From assembly GCF_000020225.1 (NCBI RefSeq), contig NC_010655.1, positions 2,550,001 through 2,582,000 on the forward strand: DNA of 32,000 nucleotides, read 5' to 3'. This document shows positions 481 to 31,522 of this stretch, piece after piece. Position 1 is the first letter of the stretch; every line of letters begins with the position of its first letter. Source of the stretch: Akkermansia muciniphila ATCC BAA-835 (GTDB lineage Bacteria > Verrucomicrobiota > Verrucomicrobiia > Verrucomicrobiales > Akkermansiaceae). The notes under the pieces are model-generated. The model made no database searches, was not told the origin of the DNA, and saw nothing but the letters and a program-made list of their open reading frames with translations. Made by a program: the position numbers and the translations under genes.

Positions 481-2529
481 ATGAAGCAAATCACTTCACT
501 CAGAGGCCTCGCGATTATTCTGATCATCCTTTTCCACCTCAATCCGGAGCATTTCCCCTACGGCTACTTCGGCGTTGAAGTGTTTCTGGTGATTTCCGGC
601 TACCTGCTCATGAAGTCCCTCCAGAAACAGCAAATGCAAATCCGTCTCGGGGAATTTGCCCGTAAAAAAGTCTTAAGACTTTTTACCCCGGTTGCCGTCA
701 TCGTCCCGCTCACTCTTCTGGCTGGCATGTTCCTTCTGGACTATACGGACCTGGCGACAGCCAGTTCCACAGGCGGATATACGCTGATAGGCGCCGCAAA
801 CAGGTTCCTGGCCGTCATCCAGTCCGACTATTTCGCGCAGGATTCTTCCGGCAATCCGTTCCTTCACATGTGGTACCTGGCGGTGACGGTGCAGATTTAT
901 CTTTTGTTCGCGGGGGGATGCGTCCTGTACCGTTACCTTCCCAAACGGGCGGCCGCCTCTCTTTTCTGGATCGCCGGCATCGGGTCCTTTCTCTGGGCCT
1001 ATTCCTATCCCATTCACAACCTGTTGCAGGAAATCGGCCTGCCCGTCTGGGAGCAGGTCCGCCCCACTTCCCATTACATGACGCTGCCCCGTTTGTGGGA
1101 GGTTTGCGCGGGGATTTTGTTAGCAATATACCCCCCCCCCTTAAGTTCAACATGTTGCGAAAACAACAAGAAAAACGCTCTCCTCTTCCTCCTTGGAATG
1201 TTATGCATCCTCGTACCTGCCCTTTCCCGCGGAAAGGATGTCTCCCTCTGCTCGGCGGCCGTAGTTTTGGGGACATGCCTGGTGATCCGGTATGCGGAAT
1301 CCGGCAGGCTAGCCCACTGGTTCAACAATAAACTTCTGCTGTGGATTGGAGGAATCTCGTTCTCCCTTTACCTGGTGCATATGCCCCTCATCGCGTTCTA
1401 TCATTCGTGGTTTCTCCATGCTCCCGGATGGCCCGGAATGCTTGCCATCGGAGCGGCGTCCGCAGTCCTGGGAGGTCTCCTGTACCTTGCAGTAGAGAAA
1501 AAGCGCATGAAGATGAAATGGTTTATCCCCTTGTACCTTTTCGCGTTGCTTCTATGCGTTGCAGGAAGGCAGACGGAAGGATTCCGGAACTACATCAACA
1601 AGGAAATCAACTCCATTTCCAGCCCCCAGCTGCATGGCGCATCGGAAATCAAATCTCCTGAAGCCGCCCGGGGATTTGATAAGGAAGCCATCAAATTCAA
1701 TAACAACATCTTTGCCTTCGTCAGCAGAGCCGATTTCAAAGGAAGTGCGGAACCCGGCCTGCTGCAGCTGGGTTCCCCTGCCGAAGCTCCATCCATAGTC
1801 CTGCTGGGGGACAGCCACGCCTCTGCGGCCTTTTGCGGATTGGACGCAGCATGCAGGGAACTGGATATCTCCGGGATTTACGTTTCTTCCGTCATTTCCC
1901 CGTTCTGGAACAGGGAATTGCCCGCGCTGCCGTTTGATGCAAGCTACTATTGCGACGAGAAAAAAATAAAGGCCCTCATGGCATGGCTGAACGTCCACCC
2001 GGAAATCAGCCATGTGGTGATAGCCCAGCACTGGAGCACCCGTTACGACAGTAAAAATGTAATGGACTGGAAGCTGAAGCCGCTTCCCTCCGGAGAACCT
2101 GCCTATTCAGATTCTCTCCGTGCGTTTATCTCCGAACTGCGGGCGATGGGCAAGCAAGTCATCCTGTTGGCCCCCACTCCGCTCATCAAGCAAAATGATG
2201 TGGCCAAATACATCAGGAACCTCATACGCAGGGGGGAAACGGGAAAAGGCCTGGAAAGCCTTACCTGCACGCGGCAAAAATACAGGGAAGATCATGCCGC
2301 CGTGCTTCCCATCCTTGACCGTCTTGAACAGGAAGGGATCTGCACCGTCCTGCGCATACTTCCCTATATACCGGAAGACAGGCCGTTCAACGCCTATGAA
2401 CACGGGGAAATCCTGTACAAGGATAGCGACCACATGTCCAGCAAAGGCTCCATCAAACTCTTCCAGCACCTGAAACCCCAGTTAAAGGAAGCGCTACAAA
2501 AAGAATCCACGGCATCACCAGGTTCATAA
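481..2529 (+). CDS. Membrane O-acyltransferase: acyltransferase-3 (OafA/YrhL-like) multi-TM domain fused to a C-terminal SGNH/GDSL domain
   Basis: 682-aa ORF starting at ATG. The N-terminus LRGLAIILIILFHL...GYFGVEVFLVISGYLL is the typical AT3-family opening with an invariant His region, followed by many hydrophobic helices. The C-terminal soluble part carries a GDS(H) block I (VLLGDSHASA) and a distal DSDHMS (DxxH-like) block typical of SGNH extensions of OafA-type O-acetyltransferases. Confidence 0.85.
   Translation: MKQITSLRGLAIILIILFHLNPEHFPYGYFGVEVFLVISGYLLMKSLQKQQMQIRLGEFARKKVLRLFTPVAVIVPLTLLAGMFLLDYTDLATASSTGGYTLIGAANRFLAVIQSDYFAQDSSGNPFLHMWYLAVTVQIYLLFAGGCVLYRYLPKRAAASLFWIAGIGSFLWAYSYPIHNLLQEIGLPVWEQVRPTSHYMTLPRLWEVCAGILLAIYPPPLSSTCCENNKKNALLFLLGMLCILVPALSRGKDVSLCSAAVVLGTCLVIRYAESGRLAHWFNNKLLLWIGGISFSLYLVHMPLIAFYHSWFLHAPGWPGMLAIGAASAVLGGLLYLAVEKKRMKMKWFIPLYLFALLLCVAGRQTEGFRNYINKEINSISSPQLHGASEIKSPEAARGFDKEAIKFNNNIFAFVSRADFKGSAEPGLLQLGSPAEAPSIVLLGDSHASAAFCGLDAACRELDISGIYVSSVISPFWNRELPALPFDASYYCDEKKIKALMAWLNVHPEISHVVIAQHWSTRYDSKNVMDWKLKPLPSGEPAYSDSLRAFISELRAMGKQVILLAPTPLIKQNDVAKYIRNLIRRGETGKGLESLTCTRQKYREDHAAVLPILDRLEQEGICTVLRILPYIPEDRPFNAYEHGEILYKDSDHMSSKGSIKLFQHLKPQLKEALQKESTASPGS
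1131..1140 (+). repeat. C10 homopolymeric tract inside the acyltransferase CDS (encodes Y-PPP)
   Basis: Read directly: ...gcaatata cccccccccc ttaagttc. It is in frame as tac ccc ccc ccc tta. Losing one C gives tac ccc ccc cct TAA, an immediate stop. Gaining one C shifts into the frame of the listed 870..1331 ORF, which stops at 1331. Confidence 0.95.
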
Positions 2530-6628: not shown

Positions 6629-6900
6629 AGACACGCATCACGCTCCCCGGCAATGGAATTCATTTCCGGAACCATGTATTGGGGAAATTTTCCCGGAGAC
6701 ATCCAGCCCCGCCGTATTTTCTCCTGTTGAGTCCCTTGCGGAGAACGCTGCGGCGCGGTGGAAAGGGAATATCTGAACAACCCCTTCCGCCGTTTCGCCC
6801 GCGGCCCCCCCTTACTCTCCCATCCCATGCTGAAAAACACGCCCGAGATGCCGCCATGACTTTGCTTGCAAAACGGCAGGAAAGGAGTATCGTCCCCCGC

Positions 6901-28309: not shown

Positions 28310-28669
28310 AACGCGCACAGCTTGCACTCCATCCCCCCGCCACGCAAGCCAAATGAACGGCCTTCCATGGAAAAACGTTACCCTTTCACGGAAAAACGCT
28401 GCGCGCAGAGGCATGCTTTCCCGAATGCCGCCCCTTTCCGGAAACTGCCGTTTTTCCCGTGTCAGACAATGATTTTTTTCCTTCTCAGGAAAACCGTACA
28501 GCAGGAGGACCGGACTCTCCATGTTTCCGGGAATCATGGACATCCGGCGCCAGGGTGCATTACAGGAAGGACCGGGAAGGAACTTCCCCCCGGTTCCAAC
28601 AGGCGGAGTTCCTTTCATCACTATTTGTTCTTGAAGAATCCGGGCGGCAAAGGATAGTGTAAGGGCATC

Positions 28670-29791
28670 ATGCAACAAACCGCACGCGCCGCTGTCCTGA
28701 CAGCACCAAAGACATTTGAAATCCGTGAATATCCCATTCCCGCCATCGGAGACGATGAAATGCTGATCAAGGTGGAAGCCTGCGGCGTTTGCGGAACGGA
28801 CGGCCACGAATACAACCGGGACCCCTTCGGCCTCTGCCCCGTGGTCCTGGGCCATGAAGGCACCGGGGAAATCGTCGCCATGGGCAGGAATATCACTAAA
28901 GACACCGCCGGAAATCCCGTAGCGCTGGGGGACAAGATCGTCACCTGCATCATTCCCTGCGGCACCTGTGACGCCTGCCTGAATACTCCGGCCCGCACCA
29001 ACCTGTGCGAAAATGTGGGCGTGTATGGCCTGATGCCTGACGACGACGTGCATCTGAACGGCTACTTCGGGGAGTACCTCGTCATCCGCAAGGGCTCCAC
29101 ATTTTTCAATGTTTCCGGCATGACGCTGGACCAGCGCATTCTGGTGGAACCCGCCGCAGTGGTGGTCCATTCCCTGGAACGCGCCAAGTCCACCGGGCTC
29201 CTCAAGTTCAATTCTGTGGTTCTCGTGCAGGGCTGCGGCCCCATCGGCCTTCTTCAAATCGCCACGCTGCGCACGCTGGGCATTGAAACCATCATCGCTG
29301 TGGACGGCAATGACTCCCGCCTGGAACTGGCCAGGGAAATGGGAGCCTCCCGCACGTATAACTTCACCCGGTACGCGGATCTGAACGAACTGCTGGATGC
29401 CGTGAAAAAGGACAACGGCGGCCGCCTGGCGGACTTCGTCTTTCAGTGCACGGGCGTAGGCAAGGCCGGGGCCAACGCCTGGAAGTTCGTGAAGCGCGGC
29501 GGCGGCCTGTGCGAAGTGGGCTTTTTCATGGATGGAGGGGAAAGCGTTATCAACCACCATTACGACCTCTGCAACAAGGAGGTAACCGCCGTAGGCTCCT
29601 GGGTGTACTCCCCGCAGGACTACCCGACCACATTCGACTTTCTGAAGCGAGCCTACGGCATCGGCCTGCCGCTGACCAAGCTGATCTCCCACCGCTTCAA
29701 GCTGGATGAAATCGCGGAAGCCCTGGAAACCAACGTCCAGATGAAAGGCATCAAGATTGCCGTCATTTGTAATTGCAGTAAAAATATATAA
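28670..29791 (+). CDS. Zn-dependent medium-chain dehydrogenase/reductase (alcohol/polyol dehydrogenase family)
   Basis: Catalytic-zinc signatures VEACGVCGTDGHEY and GHEGTGEIV. A structural-zinc Cys cluster (CIIPCGTCDACL...C) and a Rossmann motif VLVQGCGPIGL are present. The last roughly 9 codons (ICNCSKNI*) are encoded by AT-rich DNA continuous with the downstream islet. Confidence 0.9.
   Translation: MQQTARAAVLTAPKTFEIREYPIPAIGDDEMLIKVEACGVCGTDGHEYNRDPFGLCPVVLGHEGTGEIVAMGRNITKDTAGNPVALGDKIVTCIIPCGTCDACLNTPARTNLCENVGVYGLMPDDDVHLNGYFGEYLVIRKGSTFFNVSGMTLDQRILVEPAAVVVHSLERAKSTGLLKFNSVVLVQGCGPIGLLQIATLRTLGIETIIAVDGNDSRLELAREMGASRTYNFTRYADLNELLDAVKKDNGGRLADFVFQCTGVGKAGANAWKFVKRGGGLCEVGFFMDGGESVINHHYDLCNKEVTAVGSWVYSPQDYPTTFDFLKRAYGIGLPLTKLISHRFKLDEIAEALETNVQMKGIKIAVICNCSKNI
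29779..29790 (+). repeat. Left copy of 12-nt direct repeat TAAAAATATATA flanking the AT-rich islet
   Basis: Read directly: taaaaatatata at 29779-29790, overlapping the last codons of the dehydrogenase CDS. An identical copy is at 30543-30554. The AT-rich context raises the chance-match probability. Confidence 0.5.
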
Positions 29792-29833
29792 GTAAAAAAT
29801 AACTCCATAAGATAATCCATGGAAAATATTTTT

Positions 29834-30475
29834 CTATTTATGTTGCTTTTTCCCTTTATTTAAAAATATCAAATAAAAAATAACAAGAACCAAACAAATC
29901 ATAATCACTGTAATTGTTAAAATGTATGATTCTTTAAAAAATCTAAACAAACGAGGTAAAAATGGTATAATAAATCCAAACAAAGCCGATACTCCTCCTA
30001 ACATGAGGCTAACATTCAAATGAAAAGACTCATCCAATAGATCCTCTAAATCATTTAAATCTAATGATTTTATACTACATCGAGCCTTTTTCACTTTTTC
30101 CATATACAAACTTAAATCTTCTAAATATTTCTGCTTTTGATCACCAGAAACATAAACATTACCTATTATTTCTTTTATTAATTCTTCACAGACCACAACC
30201 ACATCATACAATTCCTCCTTTTTCACAGAAAATTCACGGGCTGCAGCAGAAATAATAGCGTTAACTATTTGATAATCCGGCAATCCTTTATCTACCACAT
30301 ATGCTTTTAAAAAATCAATAACTTGTTTATTAGCACTATGTACTGAATTGATATAATTCCTCTTATCCTTCCTTTGCAAAAGCCATCTTGTTACATAAAA
30401 TACTATAAATCCGCTAATAATCCCTCCCCCTATCCCAGAGGTCCAAGGGTTTTCTAAAAAAGATTGCACATCCAT
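29834..30475 (-). CDS. Orphan 3-TM membrane protein encoded in the AT-rich islet
   Basis: The ORF is open from the TTG at 30484, and the first ATG is at 30475 (MDVQSFLENPW...). It has an N-terminal TM (GIGGGIISGFIVFYVTRWLL), a charged soluble region of about 130 aa, two C-terminal TMs (VSLMLGGVSALFGFIIPFL and ILTITVIMICLVLVIFYLIFL) and a Lys-rich tail. Codon usage (AAA/AAT/ATT/TTA) is unlike every other gene in the window. No motif recognised. Confidence 0.7.
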   Translation of the reverse strand: MDVQSFLENPWTSGIGGGIISGFIVFYVTRWLLQRKDKRNYINSVHSANKQVIDFLKAYVVDKGLPDYQIVNAIISAAAREFSVKKEELYDVVVVCEELIKEIIGNVYVSGDQKQKYLEDLSLYMEKVKKARCSIKSLDLNDLEDLLDESFHLNVSLMLGGVSALFGFIIPFLPRLFRFFKESYILTITVIMICLVLVIFYLIFLNKGKKQHK

Positions 30476-30542
30476 ATCTTTCAAGGAAAGGTCAGATAAT
30501 AAAAAATGTCAACAAGTATTTTCCAAATACCAAATTTTTGTA

Positions 30543-30554
30543 TAAAAATATATA
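30543..30554 (+). repeat. Right copy of 12-nt direct repeat TAAAAATATATA flanking the AT-rich islet
   Basis: Read directly: taaaaatatata at 30543-30554, 8 nt from the aguB stop codon (30562-30564). Confidence 0.5.
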
Positions 30555-30561
30555 GGATACA

Positions 30562-31419
30562 TTACTTTCCCCACCGTTCCGTGATGCCGCCGTAGGAGTC
30601 AATGCGGCGGTCACGGAAAAAGGGCCAGATGCGGCGGTGGTCTTCCAATGCGTCCAGGTCAAGGTCCGCGTACAGGATGGCTTCATCGCTGACGGGAGCC
30701 TTCGCCACAATCTGGCCATAGTAGTCCGCCACAAAGGACTGCCCCCAGAATTCGCTTTCCCCTTCCGTCCCCACCCGGTTGACGGCGCAGACATAGCAGC
30801 CGTTGGCCACGGCATGGCCGCGCTGCACGGTTTCCCACGCGCAGTGCTGCTGTTCCCCCAGCAGGGGCTTTTCCTCCGGCAGCCAGCCGATGGCCGTGGG
30901 GTAAAAAATGATTTCCGCCCCCTGCATGGCCGTCAGGCGCGCGGCTTCCGGGTACCACTGGTCCCAGCAGATGAGCACGCCGATGCGGCCGAATTTGGTG
31001 TCGAACGCCTTATAGCCCAGGTCGCCGGGGGTGAAGTAGAATTTTTCTTCAAACCCGGGATCCTGCGGAATATGCATCTTGCGGTACATGCCCAGGAACG
31101 AACCGTCCGCATCCACCACCCAGGCGGTATTGTGGTAAAGCCCGGTGGCGCGCTTTTCAAAGCCGGAGGCAACAATCACCACGCCCAGTTCCGCCGCCAG
31201 TTTCCTGTGGGCTTCCGTCAATTCCCCGGGAACAGGTTCCGCCAAGTCGAATAAATCGCATTCCTCCGTCCTGCAAAAGTATTCCGTGGTAAAAAGTTCC
31301 TGGGTGCAGACAATCTGCGCGCCGTTGGCGGCGGCTTCACGGATGGCGGATTCCGTCTTTTCCTTGTTCACGGAAGGCCGGGCATCTGCGGACAGTTGAA
31401 TGAGTGCAATTTTCGGCAT
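30562..31419 (-). CDS. aguB: N-carbamoylputrescine amidase (nitrilase/CN-hydrolase superfamily)
   Basis: The 285-aa protein has long collinear similarity, from memory, to plant and bacterial N-carbamoylputrescine amidases. Shared stretches: QELF...YFC, YRKMHIPQDPGFEEKFYFTPGD.G...F.T.FG.IGV.ICWDQWYPEAAR....QGAEI.FYPTAIG, and WGQSF.....G.I. The catalytic Cys lies in ICWDQW. Confidence 0.9.
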   Translation of the reverse strand: MPKIALIQLSADARPSVNKEKTESAIREAAANGAQIVCTQELFTTEYFCRTEECDLFDLAEPVPGELTEAHRKLAAELGVVIVASGFEKRATGLYHNTAWVVDADGSFLGMYRKMHIPQDPGFEEKFYFTPGDLGYKAFDTKFGRIGVLICWDQWYPEAARLTAMQGAEIIFYPTAIGWLPEEKPLLGEQQHCAWETVQRGHAVANGCYVCAVNRVGTEGESEFWGQSFVADYYGQIVAKAPVSDEAILYADLDLDALEDHRRIWPFFRDRRIDSYGGITERWGK

Positions 31420-31522
31420 GCCCCTTCCTTACCCCGTTTCCCTTCCCATTCCAAGCAGGGAAAATGAACGCGGCGCGATTATTTGGTGGAAAACGGCCCG
31501 GAAAGTGCTATGAAATTGCAAT

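What the first reader, a model, noticed from the sequence alone, without database searches (positions are those of the whole stretch)
29762..30561. 0.8-kb AT-rich islet with flanking 12-nt direct repeats encoding a single orphan 3-TM protein
Seen: G+C collapses to 22-27% in counted lines, against 63% in the flank. The collapse begins at the 3' end of the dehydrogenase gene and ends 8 nt before the aguB stop. TAAAAATATATA occurs at both edges (29779-29790 and 30543-30554). The only gene (29834-30475, minus strand) has alien codon usage, one N-terminal and two C-terminal TM helices, and a charged helical middle. It has no recognisable domain and no mobility gene nearby. Known: small low-GC single-gene inserts between convergent core genes are typical of horizontally acquired accessory cargo. 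Such cargo is often phage-defence, abortive-infection or exclusion membrane effectors. Inference: this is a candidate stand-alone membrane effector, or some other niche factor, of foreign origin. The direct repeat may be an insertion scar or a chance match in AT-rich DNA.
Basis: partly seen in the sequence, partly recalled or inferred. Interest (0 to 1): 0.65.

Follow-up and report, generated by a model that had tools for sequence, protein, structure and literature searches.

The report
Old foreign membrane-protein gene in Akkermansia
The AT-rich patch is real and holds one working gene for a three-pass membrane protein that an ancestor of Akkermansia muciniphila took up long ago. The protein is not an orphan: it belongs to a large unnamed family common in mobile and phage-defence regions of gut Clostridia, and its function is untested.

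Summary
The sequence observation holds. G+C is 0.25-0.33 across 29762-30561 against about 0.6 in the flanks. There is one ORF (29834-30475, minus strand, 213 aa) and an exact 12-mer near each edge.

1. The protein is not an orphan. It belongs to an unnamed family of 210-260 aa proteins, with at least 870 clusters at 50% identity. Named members are mostly gut Clostridia.
2. The 12-mers are not an insertion scar. Two other Akkermansia lineages carry the same islet with the same boundaries but lack the repeat.
3. The insert is old and fixed, not strain cargo. It lies between aguB and the dehydrogenase in all three sampled lineages. The exact protein occurs in 1356 blocks of the assembly index. 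dN/dS is about 0.1 in the conserved domain. The gene (AMUC_RS11300, assigned by gene order) appears in published RNA-seq.

Foreign origin is supported. Relatives sit as cargo in conjugative elements, as inserted genes in phage genomes, and beside SIR2, TIR, reverse transcriptase, McrBC, AbiE and restriction-modification genes.

The predicted protein has an outside N-terminus, a glycine-zipper helix, a cytoplasmic four-helix domain, a helical hairpin and a basic tail. It has no structural or family match. A phage- or element-exclusion role is my preferred guess, at about 35%.

The parts
29762..30561 (.). AT-rich islet as reported. The foreign DNA proper runs from the dehydrogenase stop and terminator region to the base before the aguB stop codon.
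   Evidence: G+C is 0.245-0.33 against about 0.6 in the flanks. The same boundaries are seen in L006, L124 and L107.
29834..30475 (-). Coding sequence of 213 aa. By gene order it is AMUC_RS11300 (gene2254, WP_042448455.1, 'hypothetical protein') of A. muciniphila MucT.
   Evidence: ORF. The N-terminus aligns with homologues. dN/dS is 0.22-0.28 overall and 0.09-0.12 in codons 1-130. The exact protein is in 1356 index blocks. It is listed in an RNA-seq table.
30377..30445 (-). First membrane helix (about residues 11-33) with the glycine-zipper motif W-x2-GIGGGIISG. The N-terminus is predicted to lie outside.
   Evidence: W11, G18 and S21 are invariant in A1, and W11 and S21 also in the 64-sequence A2; G14, G18 and G22 are at least 90% conserved. 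The 15 residues after this helix carry a mean net charge of +2.4 across 213 members. There is a weak sub-threshold resemblance to the second helix of the P21 holin S.
30026..30376 (-). Predicted cytoplasmic helical domain (about residues 34-150), the best-conserved part. It carries the family signature: A48, N49, L56, Y59, G64, P66, R80, C96, E98, L99, I100, N106, Y108, V109, S110, K114.
   Evidence: Alignments A1 and A2. The AlphaFold model has pLDDT 89-97 over residues 11-130, with helices 10-63, 68-81, 92-105 and 111-143. dN/dS is about 0.1.
29855..30019 (-). C-terminal hairpin of two membrane helices (about residues 153-207), followed by a basic tail (NKGKKQHK). This part evolves fast.
   Evidence: Hydropathy segments at 155-173 and 185-203. 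Model helices at 149-179 and 184-211. dN/dS is about 0.55, and DNA identity to L006 is 62-69%.
29794..29834 (.). Hairpin flanked by an A-run and a T-run. It looks like a two-way intrinsic terminator between the islet gene and the convergent dehydrogenase gene.
   Evidence: Fold energy is -10.9 kcal/mol with z = -3.0 here. The orthologous hairpins score -29.5 (L006) and -22.5 (L107), and the stem sequence differs between them while pairing is kept.
30476..30561 (-). 86-nt AT-rich spacer between the aguB stop and the islet-gene start. It holds a TTGACA (30512 to 30507 on the minus strand) whose first five bases (TTGAC) are identical in all four aligned loci. No terminator was found between aguB and the islet gene.
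   Evidence: Alignment A4. Promoter and terminator scan. That this is a promoter, and that aguB transcripts read through, are both inferences.
29779..29790 (+). Copy 1 of the 12-mer TAAAAATATATA. It overlaps the last codons and the stop codon of the dehydrogenase gene.
   Evidence: The corresponding sequence in L006 and L107 differs.
30543..30554 (+). Copy 2 of the 12-mer, ending 8 nt before the aguB stop codon.
   Evidence: It lies next to a 16-nt gap in the window sequence relative to L006 and L124 (L107 also has sequence there). The 12-mer is absent from L006-L011 by exact search, and the aligned L107 and L124 sequences differ at that position.
29774..29791 (+). Five extra codons (CSKNI) plus the stop at the 3' end of the dehydrogenase gene, encoded by AT-rich DNA.
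   Evidence: The window protein is 373 aa. L006 has 368 aa and ends ...AVICD followed by TAG, where the window has TGC.
28670..29791 (+). Flanking core gene: zinc-dependent alcohol/threonine-type dehydrogenase. By gene order it is AMUC_RS11295.
   Evidence: Pfam ADH_N and ADH_zinc_N. dN/dS is 0.04-0.06.
30562..31419 (-). Flanking core gene aguB (N-carbamoylputrescine amidase type). It runs in the same direction as the islet gene and lies upstream of it.
   Evidence: CN_hydrolase at 6.6e-61. TIGR03381 at 2.2e-95, which is below that model's own cut-off.

Best explanation
The islet is one anciently acquired gene. It was inserted between the aguB stop codon and the two-way terminator shared with the convergent dehydrogenase gene. 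This happened in an ancestor of the Akkermansia muciniphila species complex, and the gene has since been kept as a functional core gene.

Its product belongs to a large unnamed family of inner-membrane proteins about 240 aa long. The family travels mainly as self-contained cargo: accessory genes in conjugative elements, inserted genes in prophages, and genes in defence islands of gut anaerobes.

Predicted anatomy:
- a short N-terminus outside the cell;
- a glycine-zipper membrane helix;
- a conserved cytoplasmic four-helix domain of about 115 aa carrying the family signature;
- a fast-evolving hairpin of two membrane helices;
- a basic tail in the cytoplasm.

Most likely mechanism (inferred, about 35%): the protein forms oligomers through the glycine-zipper helix. 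Its cytoplasmic domain senses or binds a component of an invading phage or mobile element. The membrane part then either blocks DNA entry or leaks ions, much as a holin does, so that the infection fails.

The 12-nt direct repeats play no part. They arose within the window's own lineage.
For: Shown:
- Composition and ORF.
- Same locus, same boundaries and same low G+C in three lineages.
- The Akkermansia proteins form one group. They are 81-85% identical over the first 130 aa and at most 55% identical to any other member in the 238-sequence alignment, which points to a single acquisition.
- Purifying selection: dN/dS is 0.09-0.12 in the N-terminal 130 codons and about 0.55 in the C-terminal part.
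- The exact protein is in 1356 blocks of the index, and all 24 contigs read show the same locus.
- The gene is present in a differential-expression table of A. muciniphila MucT, with log2FC -0.194 and padj 0.039. The assignment is by gene order.
- Family size and uniform architecture. All named members are called 'hypothetical protein'.
- Topology from charge bias in 213 members: N-terminus -0.4, after helix 1 +2.4, loop between helices 2 and 3 -1.3, tail +3.0.
- A confident all-helical model, mean pLDDT 84.9.

Context of relatives:
- P0031 is followed by SHOCT, SIR2_2, STM3845 and a reverse transcriptase gene.
- P0025 lies between a reverse-transcriptase fragment and a SEFIR/TIR gene.
- P0028 lies directly after McrBC and Eco57I-type genes.
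- P0030 is opposite-strand cargo in a conjugative element with ArdA, TraG, TrbL and CD1107-like genes.
- P0096 lies among transposases, an Eco47II restriction-modification pair and two AbiE pairs.
- Pooled neighbours from 12 further non-redundant metagenome loci include AAA_15 and AAA_21 ATPases (AriA/GajA/PtuA-like), TIR (ThsB-like), Cas1, IS21 and CD1107-like proteins.
- True homologues (hhalign probability 99.7-99.8%) sit in viral contigs. One lies between an HNH/small-terminase gene and a neighbourhood holding the large-terminase gene. Another lies between head and tail genes.
- No partner gene is conserved.

Weak leads towards a holin-like membrane part:
- 15 of 64 members hit the second helix of P21 holin S below threshold.
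- The best viral structure match is a Thermus phage holin at E = 0.06.
Against: - No functional test exists.
- No PADLOC model is matched. The best is KwaA at E = 0.0015 over 36 membrane residues.
- There is no significant structural match in the PDB or BFVD and no PDB sequence relative.
- In Akkermansia the gene has housekeeping neighbours, shows no presence/absence variation, and is invariant within its lineage. That is unusual for defence genes.
- The cytoplasmic domain is the conserved part and the membrane hairpin the variable part. This fits a conserved cellular partner at least as well as an arms race.
- The neighbourhood enrichment was not measured against a background rate.
- No relative was found in 50,697 GenBank phage records or 72,556 plasmids.
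- The link to AMUC_RS11300 rests on gene order, not on sequence.
Confidence: 0.5

Rival explanations
1. The protein is a domesticated membrane protein with a cellular, non-defence role, for example envelope or ion homeostasis, or regulation of a membrane process. It would have been kept because it benefits Akkermansia in the gut. Its cytoplasmic domain would bind a conserved host partner.
For: - It is fixed in all sampled lineages and invariant in 1356 index blocks.
- Purifying selection is strong on the cytoplasmic domain.
- It lies downstream of aguB, with no terminator found between them.
- It is transcribed in culture without phage.
- There is a precedent in another low-G+C Akkermansia membrane gene, stlA, which confers salt tolerance on E. 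coli (PMC3861447).
Against: - Relatives are scattered in mobile and defence contexts rather than in conserved operons.
- The response to ox-bile is very small (-0.19 log2).
- No metabolic or envelope gene is consistently linked to the family.
Confidence: 0.3
2. The protein is an element-maintenance factor: entry or superinfection exclusion for the conjugative element or prophage that carries it. In Akkermansia it would be a leftover from a decayed element.
For: - It sits in an opposite-strand cargo slot between the topoisomerase and CD1107-like genes of a conjugative element. The same slot is seen on three separate contigs for P0030, and two CD1107-like neighbours turn up in the metagenome loci.
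- In viral contigs it occupies positions typical of inserted accessory genes.
- One member has a weak sub-threshold hit to SieB.
Against: - No remnant of an element flanks the Akkermansia gene.
- A leftover gene would not be expected to stay under purifying selection or to be invariant.
- This explanation overlaps with the best one and is hard to separate from it by computation.
Confidence: 0.15
3. This is a recent strain-specific insertion bounded by a 12-nt target-site duplication.
For: An exact 12-mer lies near both edges. Both copies falling within 60 nt of the edges occurs in only 0.24% of shuffles.
Against: - The repeat is absent from the orthologous islets in L006-L011 by exact search, and the aligned L107 and L124 sequences differ at both positions, although the boundaries are the same.
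- Both copies lie at positions where the window's lineage has local indels or substitutions.
- Some 12-mer repeat is expected in 17% of shuffles of this composition.
- There is no transposase, integrase or tRNA.
- The islet is present in every contig examined.
Confidence: 0.03
4. The ORF is a non-functional chance reading frame in AT-rich spacer DNA.
For: There is no family annotation, the codon usage is alien, and no clear ribosome-binding site is seen in the window.
Against: - dN/dS is well below 1.
- There are hundreds of full-length homologues with invariant residues.
- The structure model is confident.
- The gene appears in an RNA-seq table.
Confidence: 0.01

Closest known systems
Prophage 'moron' genes and conjugative-element cargo genes that encode small membrane proteins for superinfection exclusion, such as lambda/P22 SieB-type proteins and HK97 gp15-type inner-membrane proteins (from my own knowledge of the field)
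   Same: It is a single self-contained gene, with what look like its own promoter and terminator. In carriers it lies on the opposite strand or is inserted between modules. It is a small multi-pass inner-membrane protein. One family member gives a weak SieB hit.
   Different: No sequence or fold membership could be shown. The SieB hit is 22.1 bits against a cut-off of 26, in one member only. This family has a conserved cytoplasmic domain of about 115 aa that those proteins are not known to share. In Akkermansia no element remains around the gene.
Pinholin S21 of phage P21 (Pfam PF04971) and holins in general
   Same: It has a glycine-zipper membrane helix followed by a basic stretch, and a highly basic C-terminal tail. 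15 of 64 members hit the second helix of the P21 holin model below threshold. The best viral fold match is a holin, at E = 0.06.
   Different: All scores are below the curated cut-off. The protein is two to three times longer than typical holins and has an extra folded cytoplasmic domain. It is not next to an endolysin, either here or in the viral contigs examined.
Kiwa KwaA and other membrane proteins of known defence systems in PADLOC
   Same: It is a multi-pass membrane protein, and its relatives occur in defence-island surroundings.
   Different: The KwaA hit is E = 0.0015 over 36 residues of one helix. There is no KwaB-like or other conserved partner. It is not a member.
StlA, a low-G+C Akkermansia membrane protein that confers salt tolerance on E. 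coli (Culligan et al. 2013, PMC3861447)
   Same: It is another compositionally foreign gene for a membrane protein of unknown family, in Akkermansia-derived DNA.
   Different: StlA has 257 aa and four predicted membrane helices. It lies in a predicted prophage region at another locus and is rare in metagenomes. The gene studied here is fixed and abundant.

Membership tests
   Alignments A1 and A2 list the invariant residues. Profile hits run from 1e-91 to 1e-38. Three hydrophobic segments are found in 213 of 233 members.
Horizontally acquired genomic islet | Composition deviates strongly from the host genome. | tested here: met
   G+C is 0.285 over the 800 nt against 0.566 for the window. GC3 is 0.24 against 0.6-0.8 in the neighbouring genes.
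Horizontally acquired genomic islet | The gene family is centred in other taxa or on mobile elements. | tested here: met
   Named hits are Clostridia. Carriers include a conjugative element, viral contigs and defence islands.
Horizontally acquired genomic islet | Presence/absence polymorphism, or an empty site in close relatives. | tested here: not met
   The islet is present in every A. muciniphila-complex contig examined. More distant relatives have neither the aguB-dehydrogenase junction nor the gene beside either flank, so no empty site exists in the data.
Transposable or integrative insertion with target-site duplication | Direct repeats at the boundaries that are shared by all copies of the insert, plus a transposase, an integrase or a tRNA target. 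| tested here: not met
   The 12-mer occurs only in the window's lineage. No mobility gene or tRNA is present.
Kiwa (KwaA/KwaB) | A significant KwaA model hit and an adjacent KwaB gene. | tested here: not met
   The KwaA hit is E = 0.0015 and 16.8 bits over residues 177-212 only. The neighbours are aguB and a dehydrogenase gene.
Holin (P21 S type, PF04971) | Score above the Pfam gathering threshold of 26 bits, and a position in a lysis cassette next to an endolysin. | tested here: not met
   There is no hit for the window protein. The two member hits shown individually score about 16 bits; the best E-value among all members is 6.8e-4. No endolysin gene is adjacent.
SieB superinfection exclusion (PF14163) | Score above the gathering threshold of 26 bits. 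| tested here: not met
   Among the ten members scanned individually only P0029 hits SieB, at 22.1 bits, and SieB is not among the 25 most frequent families across the 64 members. The window protein does not hit it.
Any solved or predicted-viral fold | Foldseek E <= 1e-3 with TM-score above 0.5. | tested here: not met
   The best PDB match has E = 0.4 and query TM-score 0.22. The best BFVD match has E = 0.06 and query TM-score 0.29.
Anti-phage defence gene (functional class) | Protection against phage when expressed, or a statistically tested enrichment next to known defence genes. | not testable with these tools
   Only an uncontrolled neighbourhood survey was possible. 5 of 7 annotated contexts have defence or mobile-element hallmarks.

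The most novel reading that the evidence does not exclude
The gene could be the Akkermansia representative of an uncharacterised, widespread, single-gene family (at least 870 clusters) of holin-like membrane proteins. They would carry their own cytoplasmic sensing domain and protect cells against phage or incoming DNA. The family would spread on conjugative elements and prophages of gut anaerobes, and would have been captured as a fixed core gene in a therapeutically important commensal.
Probability: 0.25. Interest if true: 0.6.

Novelty: new member of a known kind. Interest (0 to 1): 0.35.

Why it matters
A. muciniphila is under development as a live biotherapeutic. Fixed genes of foreign origin and unknown function are relevant to its phage resistance, to DNA uptake (and so to how easily it can be engineered), and to strain stability.

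More broadly, the work defines a large, unannotated and structurally unmatched membrane-protein family. The family is repeatedly found in defence islands, conjugative-element cargo slots and phage genomes of gut Clostridia. This makes it a reasonable candidate for defence or exclusion screens.

If the gene turns out to be an ordinary domesticated membrane protein, the finding is a routine case of old gene transfer.

Tried and rejected
- **Family libraries.** Pfam, NCBIfam, PADLOC and PHROGs scans of the protein gave nothing above threshold. Scanning all 64 aligned members gave only sub-threshold, membrane-helix-driven hits to DUF2207_C, P21 holin, DUF6773 and SieB. I treat these as leads only.
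- **Structure and PDB.** Foldseek against the PDB and BFVD, and a profile search of PDB sequences, gave no significant match.
- **Conserved partner gene.** The small genes downstream in L012 and L019 are unrelated to each other, and the other neighbours differ between loci.
- **Empty site.**
  - The nearest Akkermansia genomes it returned (AguB 80%) have different gene order, and none of the 80 loci has the dehydrogenase or the islet protein near aguB.
  - The 86%-identical dehydrogenase (L165) also sits in a different context.
- **Direction of base changes (amelioration test).** With three lineages, AT>GC changes number 108 and GC>AT changes 39 in the islet gene. This would fit slow drift towards host composition. 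However, parsimony is biased towards 'common to rare' changes in skewed sequences, and the GC-rich flanks show the mirror-image excess. I count the result as inconclusive.
- **Isolate phages and plasmids.** DNA and protein searches found no match with either the Akkermansia protein or a central family member.
- **RNA features.** An Rfam scan over 28500-31500 and a tRNA scan of the whole window found nothing.
- **Literature.**
  - stlA looked promising but is a different gene.
  - The transposon-library paper (Davey et al. 2023) and the Ottman et al. 2017 omics paper are not held.
  - No paper mentions the guessed old locus tags Amuc_2116-2121.
  - Two further expression papers had no usable supplement.
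Full report
**1. The observation**

- In 200-nt windows, G+C falls from 0.59-0.66 to 0.245-0.33 between about 29700 and 30500, then returns to about 0.61 by 30600.
- The 800-nt segment has 28.5% G+C, against 56.6% for the whole window.
- It lies between a zinc-dependent dehydrogenase gene (28670-29791, +) and an aguB-type amidase gene (30562-31419, -).
- Its one substantial ORF is 29834-30475 on the minus strand, with GC3 of 0.24.
- TAAAAATATATA occurs exactly twice in 32 kb, at 29779-29790 and 30543-30554.
- No Pfam, NCBIfam, PADLOC or PHROGs family passes threshold.
- No tRNA or Rfam match is nearby.

**2. Where the window comes from**

- The exact AguB protein is encoded on complete Akkermansia muciniphila chromosomes of 2.66 Mb.
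- Window 481-2529 has the same length and offset as amuc_2098, the last gene of the cps1 capsule locus. A published table gives its coordinates as 2,550,481-2,552,529 (PMC13343947).
- That ORF contains the (C)10 tract reported for Amuc_2098 in the genome paper (PMC3048395). The tract is at 1131-1140.
- The window is therefore about 2,550,001-2,582,000 of the type-strain genome.
- In a published RNA-seq table, AMUC_RS11295 is 'threonine dehydrogenase' and AMUC_RS11320 is peptidyl-tRNA hydrolase.
- The gene order found here is dehydrogenase, islet gene, aguB, MoxR, DUF58, Pth. By that order the islet gene is AMUC_RS11300 (gene2254, WP_042448455.1, 'hypothetical protein').
- That entry is listed with log2FC -0.194 and padj 0.039 under ox-bile (PMC7671984).
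- A significant call on so small a change implies a well-covered transcript. The gene assignment rests on order, not on sequence.

**3. The protein is not an orphan**

- A single-sequence search found 41 relatives.
- A profile search found 237 clusters at 90% identity.
- An exhaustive HMMER scan of 1.84 billion representatives found 870 at E <= 1e-3 and 328 at E <= 1e-30.
- Nearly all are 210-260 aa and match over their full length.
- Every named one is called 'hypothetical protein'. They come from Akkermansia, Lachnospiraceae, Oscillospiraceae, Dysosmobacter, Anaerovoracaceae and Paraclostridium.
- The alignments define a signature:
  - an N-terminal helix N-x-W-x2-GIGGGIISG;
  - then A48, N49, L56, Y59, G64, P66, R80, C96, E98, L99, I100, N106, Y108, V109, S110 and K114 (invariant in the 21-sequence A1; twelve of these columns stay invariant and most of the rest stay above 90% in the 64-sequence A2);
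  - then a variable C-terminal part with two hydrophobic helices.

**4. Anatomy of the protein**

- AlphaFold2 with 64 sequences gives an all-helical model with mean pLDDT 84.9. pLDDT is 89-97 over residues 11-130. Helices lie at 10-63, 68-81, 92-105, 111-143, 149-179 and 184-211.
- Of 233 family members, 213 have three Kyte-Doolittle hydrophobic segments.
- Mean net charge is -0.4 before helix 1, +2.4 in the 15 residues after it, -1.3 in the loop between helices 2 and 3, and +3.0 in the tail. The tail has 7.6 Lys+Arg on average.
- By the positive-inside rule, the N-terminus is outside, the conserved domain of about 115 residues is cytoplasmic, the short loop is outside and the basic tail is inside.
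- Foldseek finds nothing significant. The best PDB match has E = 0.4. The best viral match is a Thermus phage holin at E = 0.06 with TM-score 0.29.
- A profile search of PDB sequences also finds nothing.
- Sub-threshold Pfam hits across members come from the membrane helices. Helix 1 plus its basic stretch aligns with the second helix of P21 holin S in 15 of 64 members. The C-terminal hairpin gives DUF2207_C, DUF6773 and, once, SieB. These are leads, not memberships.

**5. History in Akkermansia**

- Proteins 67%, 65% and 59% identical to the window's protein are encoded at the same place in other Akkermansia lineages. That place is downstream of aguB and convergent with the dehydrogenase gene (L006-L011, L124, L107).
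- Flanking DNA is about 93% identical. The islet is 80-89% identical over the N-terminal domain and 62-69% over the C-terminal part.
- The low G+C (27-31%) is the same in all lineages.
- Boundary alignments show that the AT-rich DNA starts right after the aguB stop codon and ends at the dehydrogenase stop codon in every lineage.
- The Akkermansia proteins are 81-85% identical to each other over the first 130 residues. They are at most 55% identical to any other member of the 238-sequence alignment.
- One acquisition before these lineages split is therefore the simplest account. The donor cannot be named.

dN/dS against L006 and L107:

| Gene or part | dN/dS (L006 / L107) | dS (L006 / L107) |
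|---|---|---|
| aguB | 0.05 / 0.06 | 0.304 / 0.297 |
| Dehydrogenase | 0.04 / 0.06 | 0.291 / 0.349 |
| Islet gene, whole | 0.28 / 0.22 | 0.71 / 1.22 |
| Islet gene, codons 1-130 | 0.12 / 0.09 | 0.65 / 1.22 |
| Islet gene, remainder | 0.55 / 0.56 | 0.83 / 1.23 |

- The gene is thus a constrained coding sequence that evolves faster than its neighbours.
- Within the window's own lineage it is essentially invariant. The exact 213-aa sequence is indexed in 1356 blocks of the assembly collection, against 990 for the exact AguB. All 24 contigs read show the same locus.
- Beyond the complex, gene order is different.
  - Akkermansia genomes with 80% AguB identity have another gene after aguB.
  - None of the 80 aguB loci has the dehydrogenase or the islet protein nearby.
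  - A relative with an 86%-identical dehydrogenase has it between Ham1 and an aldose epimerase gene.
- The junction itself is therefore specific to the complex, and no empty site could be found.

**6. The direct repeat**

- In first-order Markov shuffles of the islet, a 12-nt direct repeat appears somewhere in 17% of trials. One with both copies within 60 nt of the edges appears in 0.24%.
- The decisive test is comparative. An exact search finds the 12-mer in neither orientation in L006-L011, and the aligned L107 and L124 sequences differ at those positions.
- The copy near aguB lies beside a 16-nt gap in the window sequence relative to L006 and L124; L107 also has sequence there.
- The copy near the dehydrogenase gene replaces GGTAGCTTTAC (L006) and GGTATTTTTAA (L107).
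- In the same stretch, the window's dehydrogenase has TGC where L006 has the stop codon TAG. This adds five codons (CSKNI) of AT-rich sequence.
- The repeat is a local accident of low-complexity DNA, not a scar.

**7. Signals around the gene**

- All three lineages have a hairpin between the islet-gene stop and the dehydrogenase stop, flanked by an A-run and a T-run.
- Fold energies are -29.5 kcal/mol in L006, -22.5 in L107 and -10.9 (z = -3.0) in the window, where it spans 29794-29834. The stem sequence differs between lineages while pairing is kept.
- It looks like a two-way terminator.
- aguB and the islet gene point the same way, and no terminator-like site was found between them.
- The foreign gene therefore sits between aguB and that terminator. 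It may be transcribed both from aguB and from its own upstream region, where the first five bases of a TTGACA (30512 to 30507, minus strand) are identical in all four aligned loci. These last points are inferences.

**8. What relatives are doing**

Seven look-ups returned annotated neighbours:

- P0031 lies after smpB and is followed by SHOCT, SIR2_2, STM3845 and a reverse transcriptase gene.
- P0025 lies between HTH genes plus a reverse-transcriptase fragment and a SEFIR/TIR gene.
- P0028 lies directly after methyltransferase, Eco57I, AAA_5 and McrBC genes, and before an FRG gene.
- P0030 is on the opposite strand inside a conjugative element with ArdA, TraG, TrbL, topoisomerase and CD1107-like genes.
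- P0096 lies among transposases, an Eco47II restriction-modification pair and two AbiE pairs.
- P0080 lies near a MazE/PemK pair but is otherwise among metabolic genes.
- P0018 is on a short, uninformative contig.

So five of seven contexts carry clear defence or mobile-element hallmarks. Further evidence:

- Twelve more non-redundant metagenome loci gave 79 pooled neighbours. They included:
  - four AAA_15 and three AAA_21 ATPases;
  - PADLOC hits to AriA, GajA, PtuA and Old;
  - two TIR proteins (ThsB-like);
  - Cas1 and a C5 methylase;
  - IS21 and other transposases;
  - two CD1107-like proteins.
- Nine IMG/VR contigs carry more distant but true homologues, with hhalign probability 99.7-99.8%.
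  - In L116 the gene sits after an HNH/small-terminase gene, with an unknown 108-aa gene and then the large-terminase gene downstream.
  - In L111 it sits between head protease/capsid genes and a tail assembly gene.
  - In L112 it sits beside a DNA methyltransferase gene.
  - In L113 an anti-repressor-type regulator gene lies about 600 nt downstream, after a small unannotated ORF.
- No partner gene is conserved.
- No relative was found in GenBank isolate phages or in PLSDB plasmids.
- I had no background rate, so the enrichment is suggestive rather than tested.

**9. Interpretation**

- With high confidence (about 0.85), the islet is an old, single-gene horizontal acquisition. It has become a fixed, expressed and selectively maintained gene of the A. 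muciniphila complex. It encodes a member of a large unnamed membrane-protein family that otherwise travels as self-contained cargo.
- The mechanism is much less certain. I prefer an exclusion or abortive-infection role, at about 0.35. In this model:
  - the glycine-zipper helix drives oligomerisation;
  - the conserved cytoplasmic domain senses or binds an invader or host component;
  - the membrane part blocks DNA entry or leaks ions like a holin.
- Points against this:
  - the fixation and invariance in Akkermansia;
  - the housekeeping neighbours;
  - the fact that the cytoplasmic domain, not the membrane part, is conserved.
- These points fit a domesticated cellular role about as well (about 0.3).
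- A pure element-maintenance role is a third option (about 0.15).
- A recent insertion with target-site duplication, and a spurious ORF, are both rejected.

**10. Novelty and score**

- A foreign single-gene islet in a gut bacterium is a known kind of feature, and the gene is already annotated as hypothetical.
- What is new is the delineation of the family, its topology and signature, its mobile and defence contexts, and its history in Akkermansia.
- I rate this a new member of a known kind, with interest 0.35.
- The most novel reading still open is a widespread new single-gene holin-like defence or exclusion family domesticated in Akkermansia. I give it a probability of about 0.25 and an interest of about 0.6 if true.

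Noticed in passing
window 481-2529 (+), C-tract at 1131-1140: This ORF matches amuc_2098, the acyltransferase that closes the cps1 capsule locus. It carries the (C)10 homopolymer that the genome paper flagged as a possible slipped-strand phase-variation site (PMC13343947, PMC3048395).
   Followed up: partly
window 29774-29791 (+): The dehydrogenase gene reads five codons (CSKNI) further than in lineage L006. The ancestral stop position has TGC here and TAG there, so the C-terminus is encoded by the AT-rich DNA. A 368-aa version that is otherwise 100% identical is the representative of a large cluster (P0286, 1107 members), so this may vary between strains.
   Followed up: partly
window 29794-29834; L006 about 6697-6736; L107 6763-6800: A two-way terminator-like hairpin lies between the convergent islet gene and dehydrogenase gene. 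The stem sequence differs between lineages while pairing is preserved. The hairpin is much weaker in the window's lineage (-10.9 against -29.5 and -22.5 kcal/mol).
   Followed up: yes
L121 5739-6398: In one metagenome strain of the window's lineage, an IS1595-family transposase gene lies about 0.9 kb beyond the dehydrogenase gene, where other strains have seryl-tRNA synthetase.
   Followed up: no
P0006 (ENA contig of 2.7 kb): A 328-aa predicted protein with peptidase M16 domains is 100% identical to 55% of the islet protein. It is probably a chimeric contig or gene call, but it could be a rearrangement in some strain.
   Followed up: no
window 29834-30475 compared with the flanks: Synonymous divergence between lineages is two to four times higher in the islet gene (dS 0.71-1.22) than in aguB or the dehydrogenase gene (about 0.3). 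The cause could be a locally higher mutation rate, weaker codon constraint, older alleles, or a method artefact in very AT-rich codons. It is unexplained.
   Followed up: partly
L012 6804-7145 and L019 7810-8160: Two Clostridial homologues are each followed by a small gene (113 and 116 aa) on the same strand. The two small proteins are unrelated to each other and have no Pfam match.
   Followed up: yes
L110 (64% G+C) and L112 (57% G+C): Distant family members also occur on high-G+C viral contigs. The family is therefore not confined to low-G+C hosts, even though the Akkermansia copy is AT-rich.
   Followed up: no
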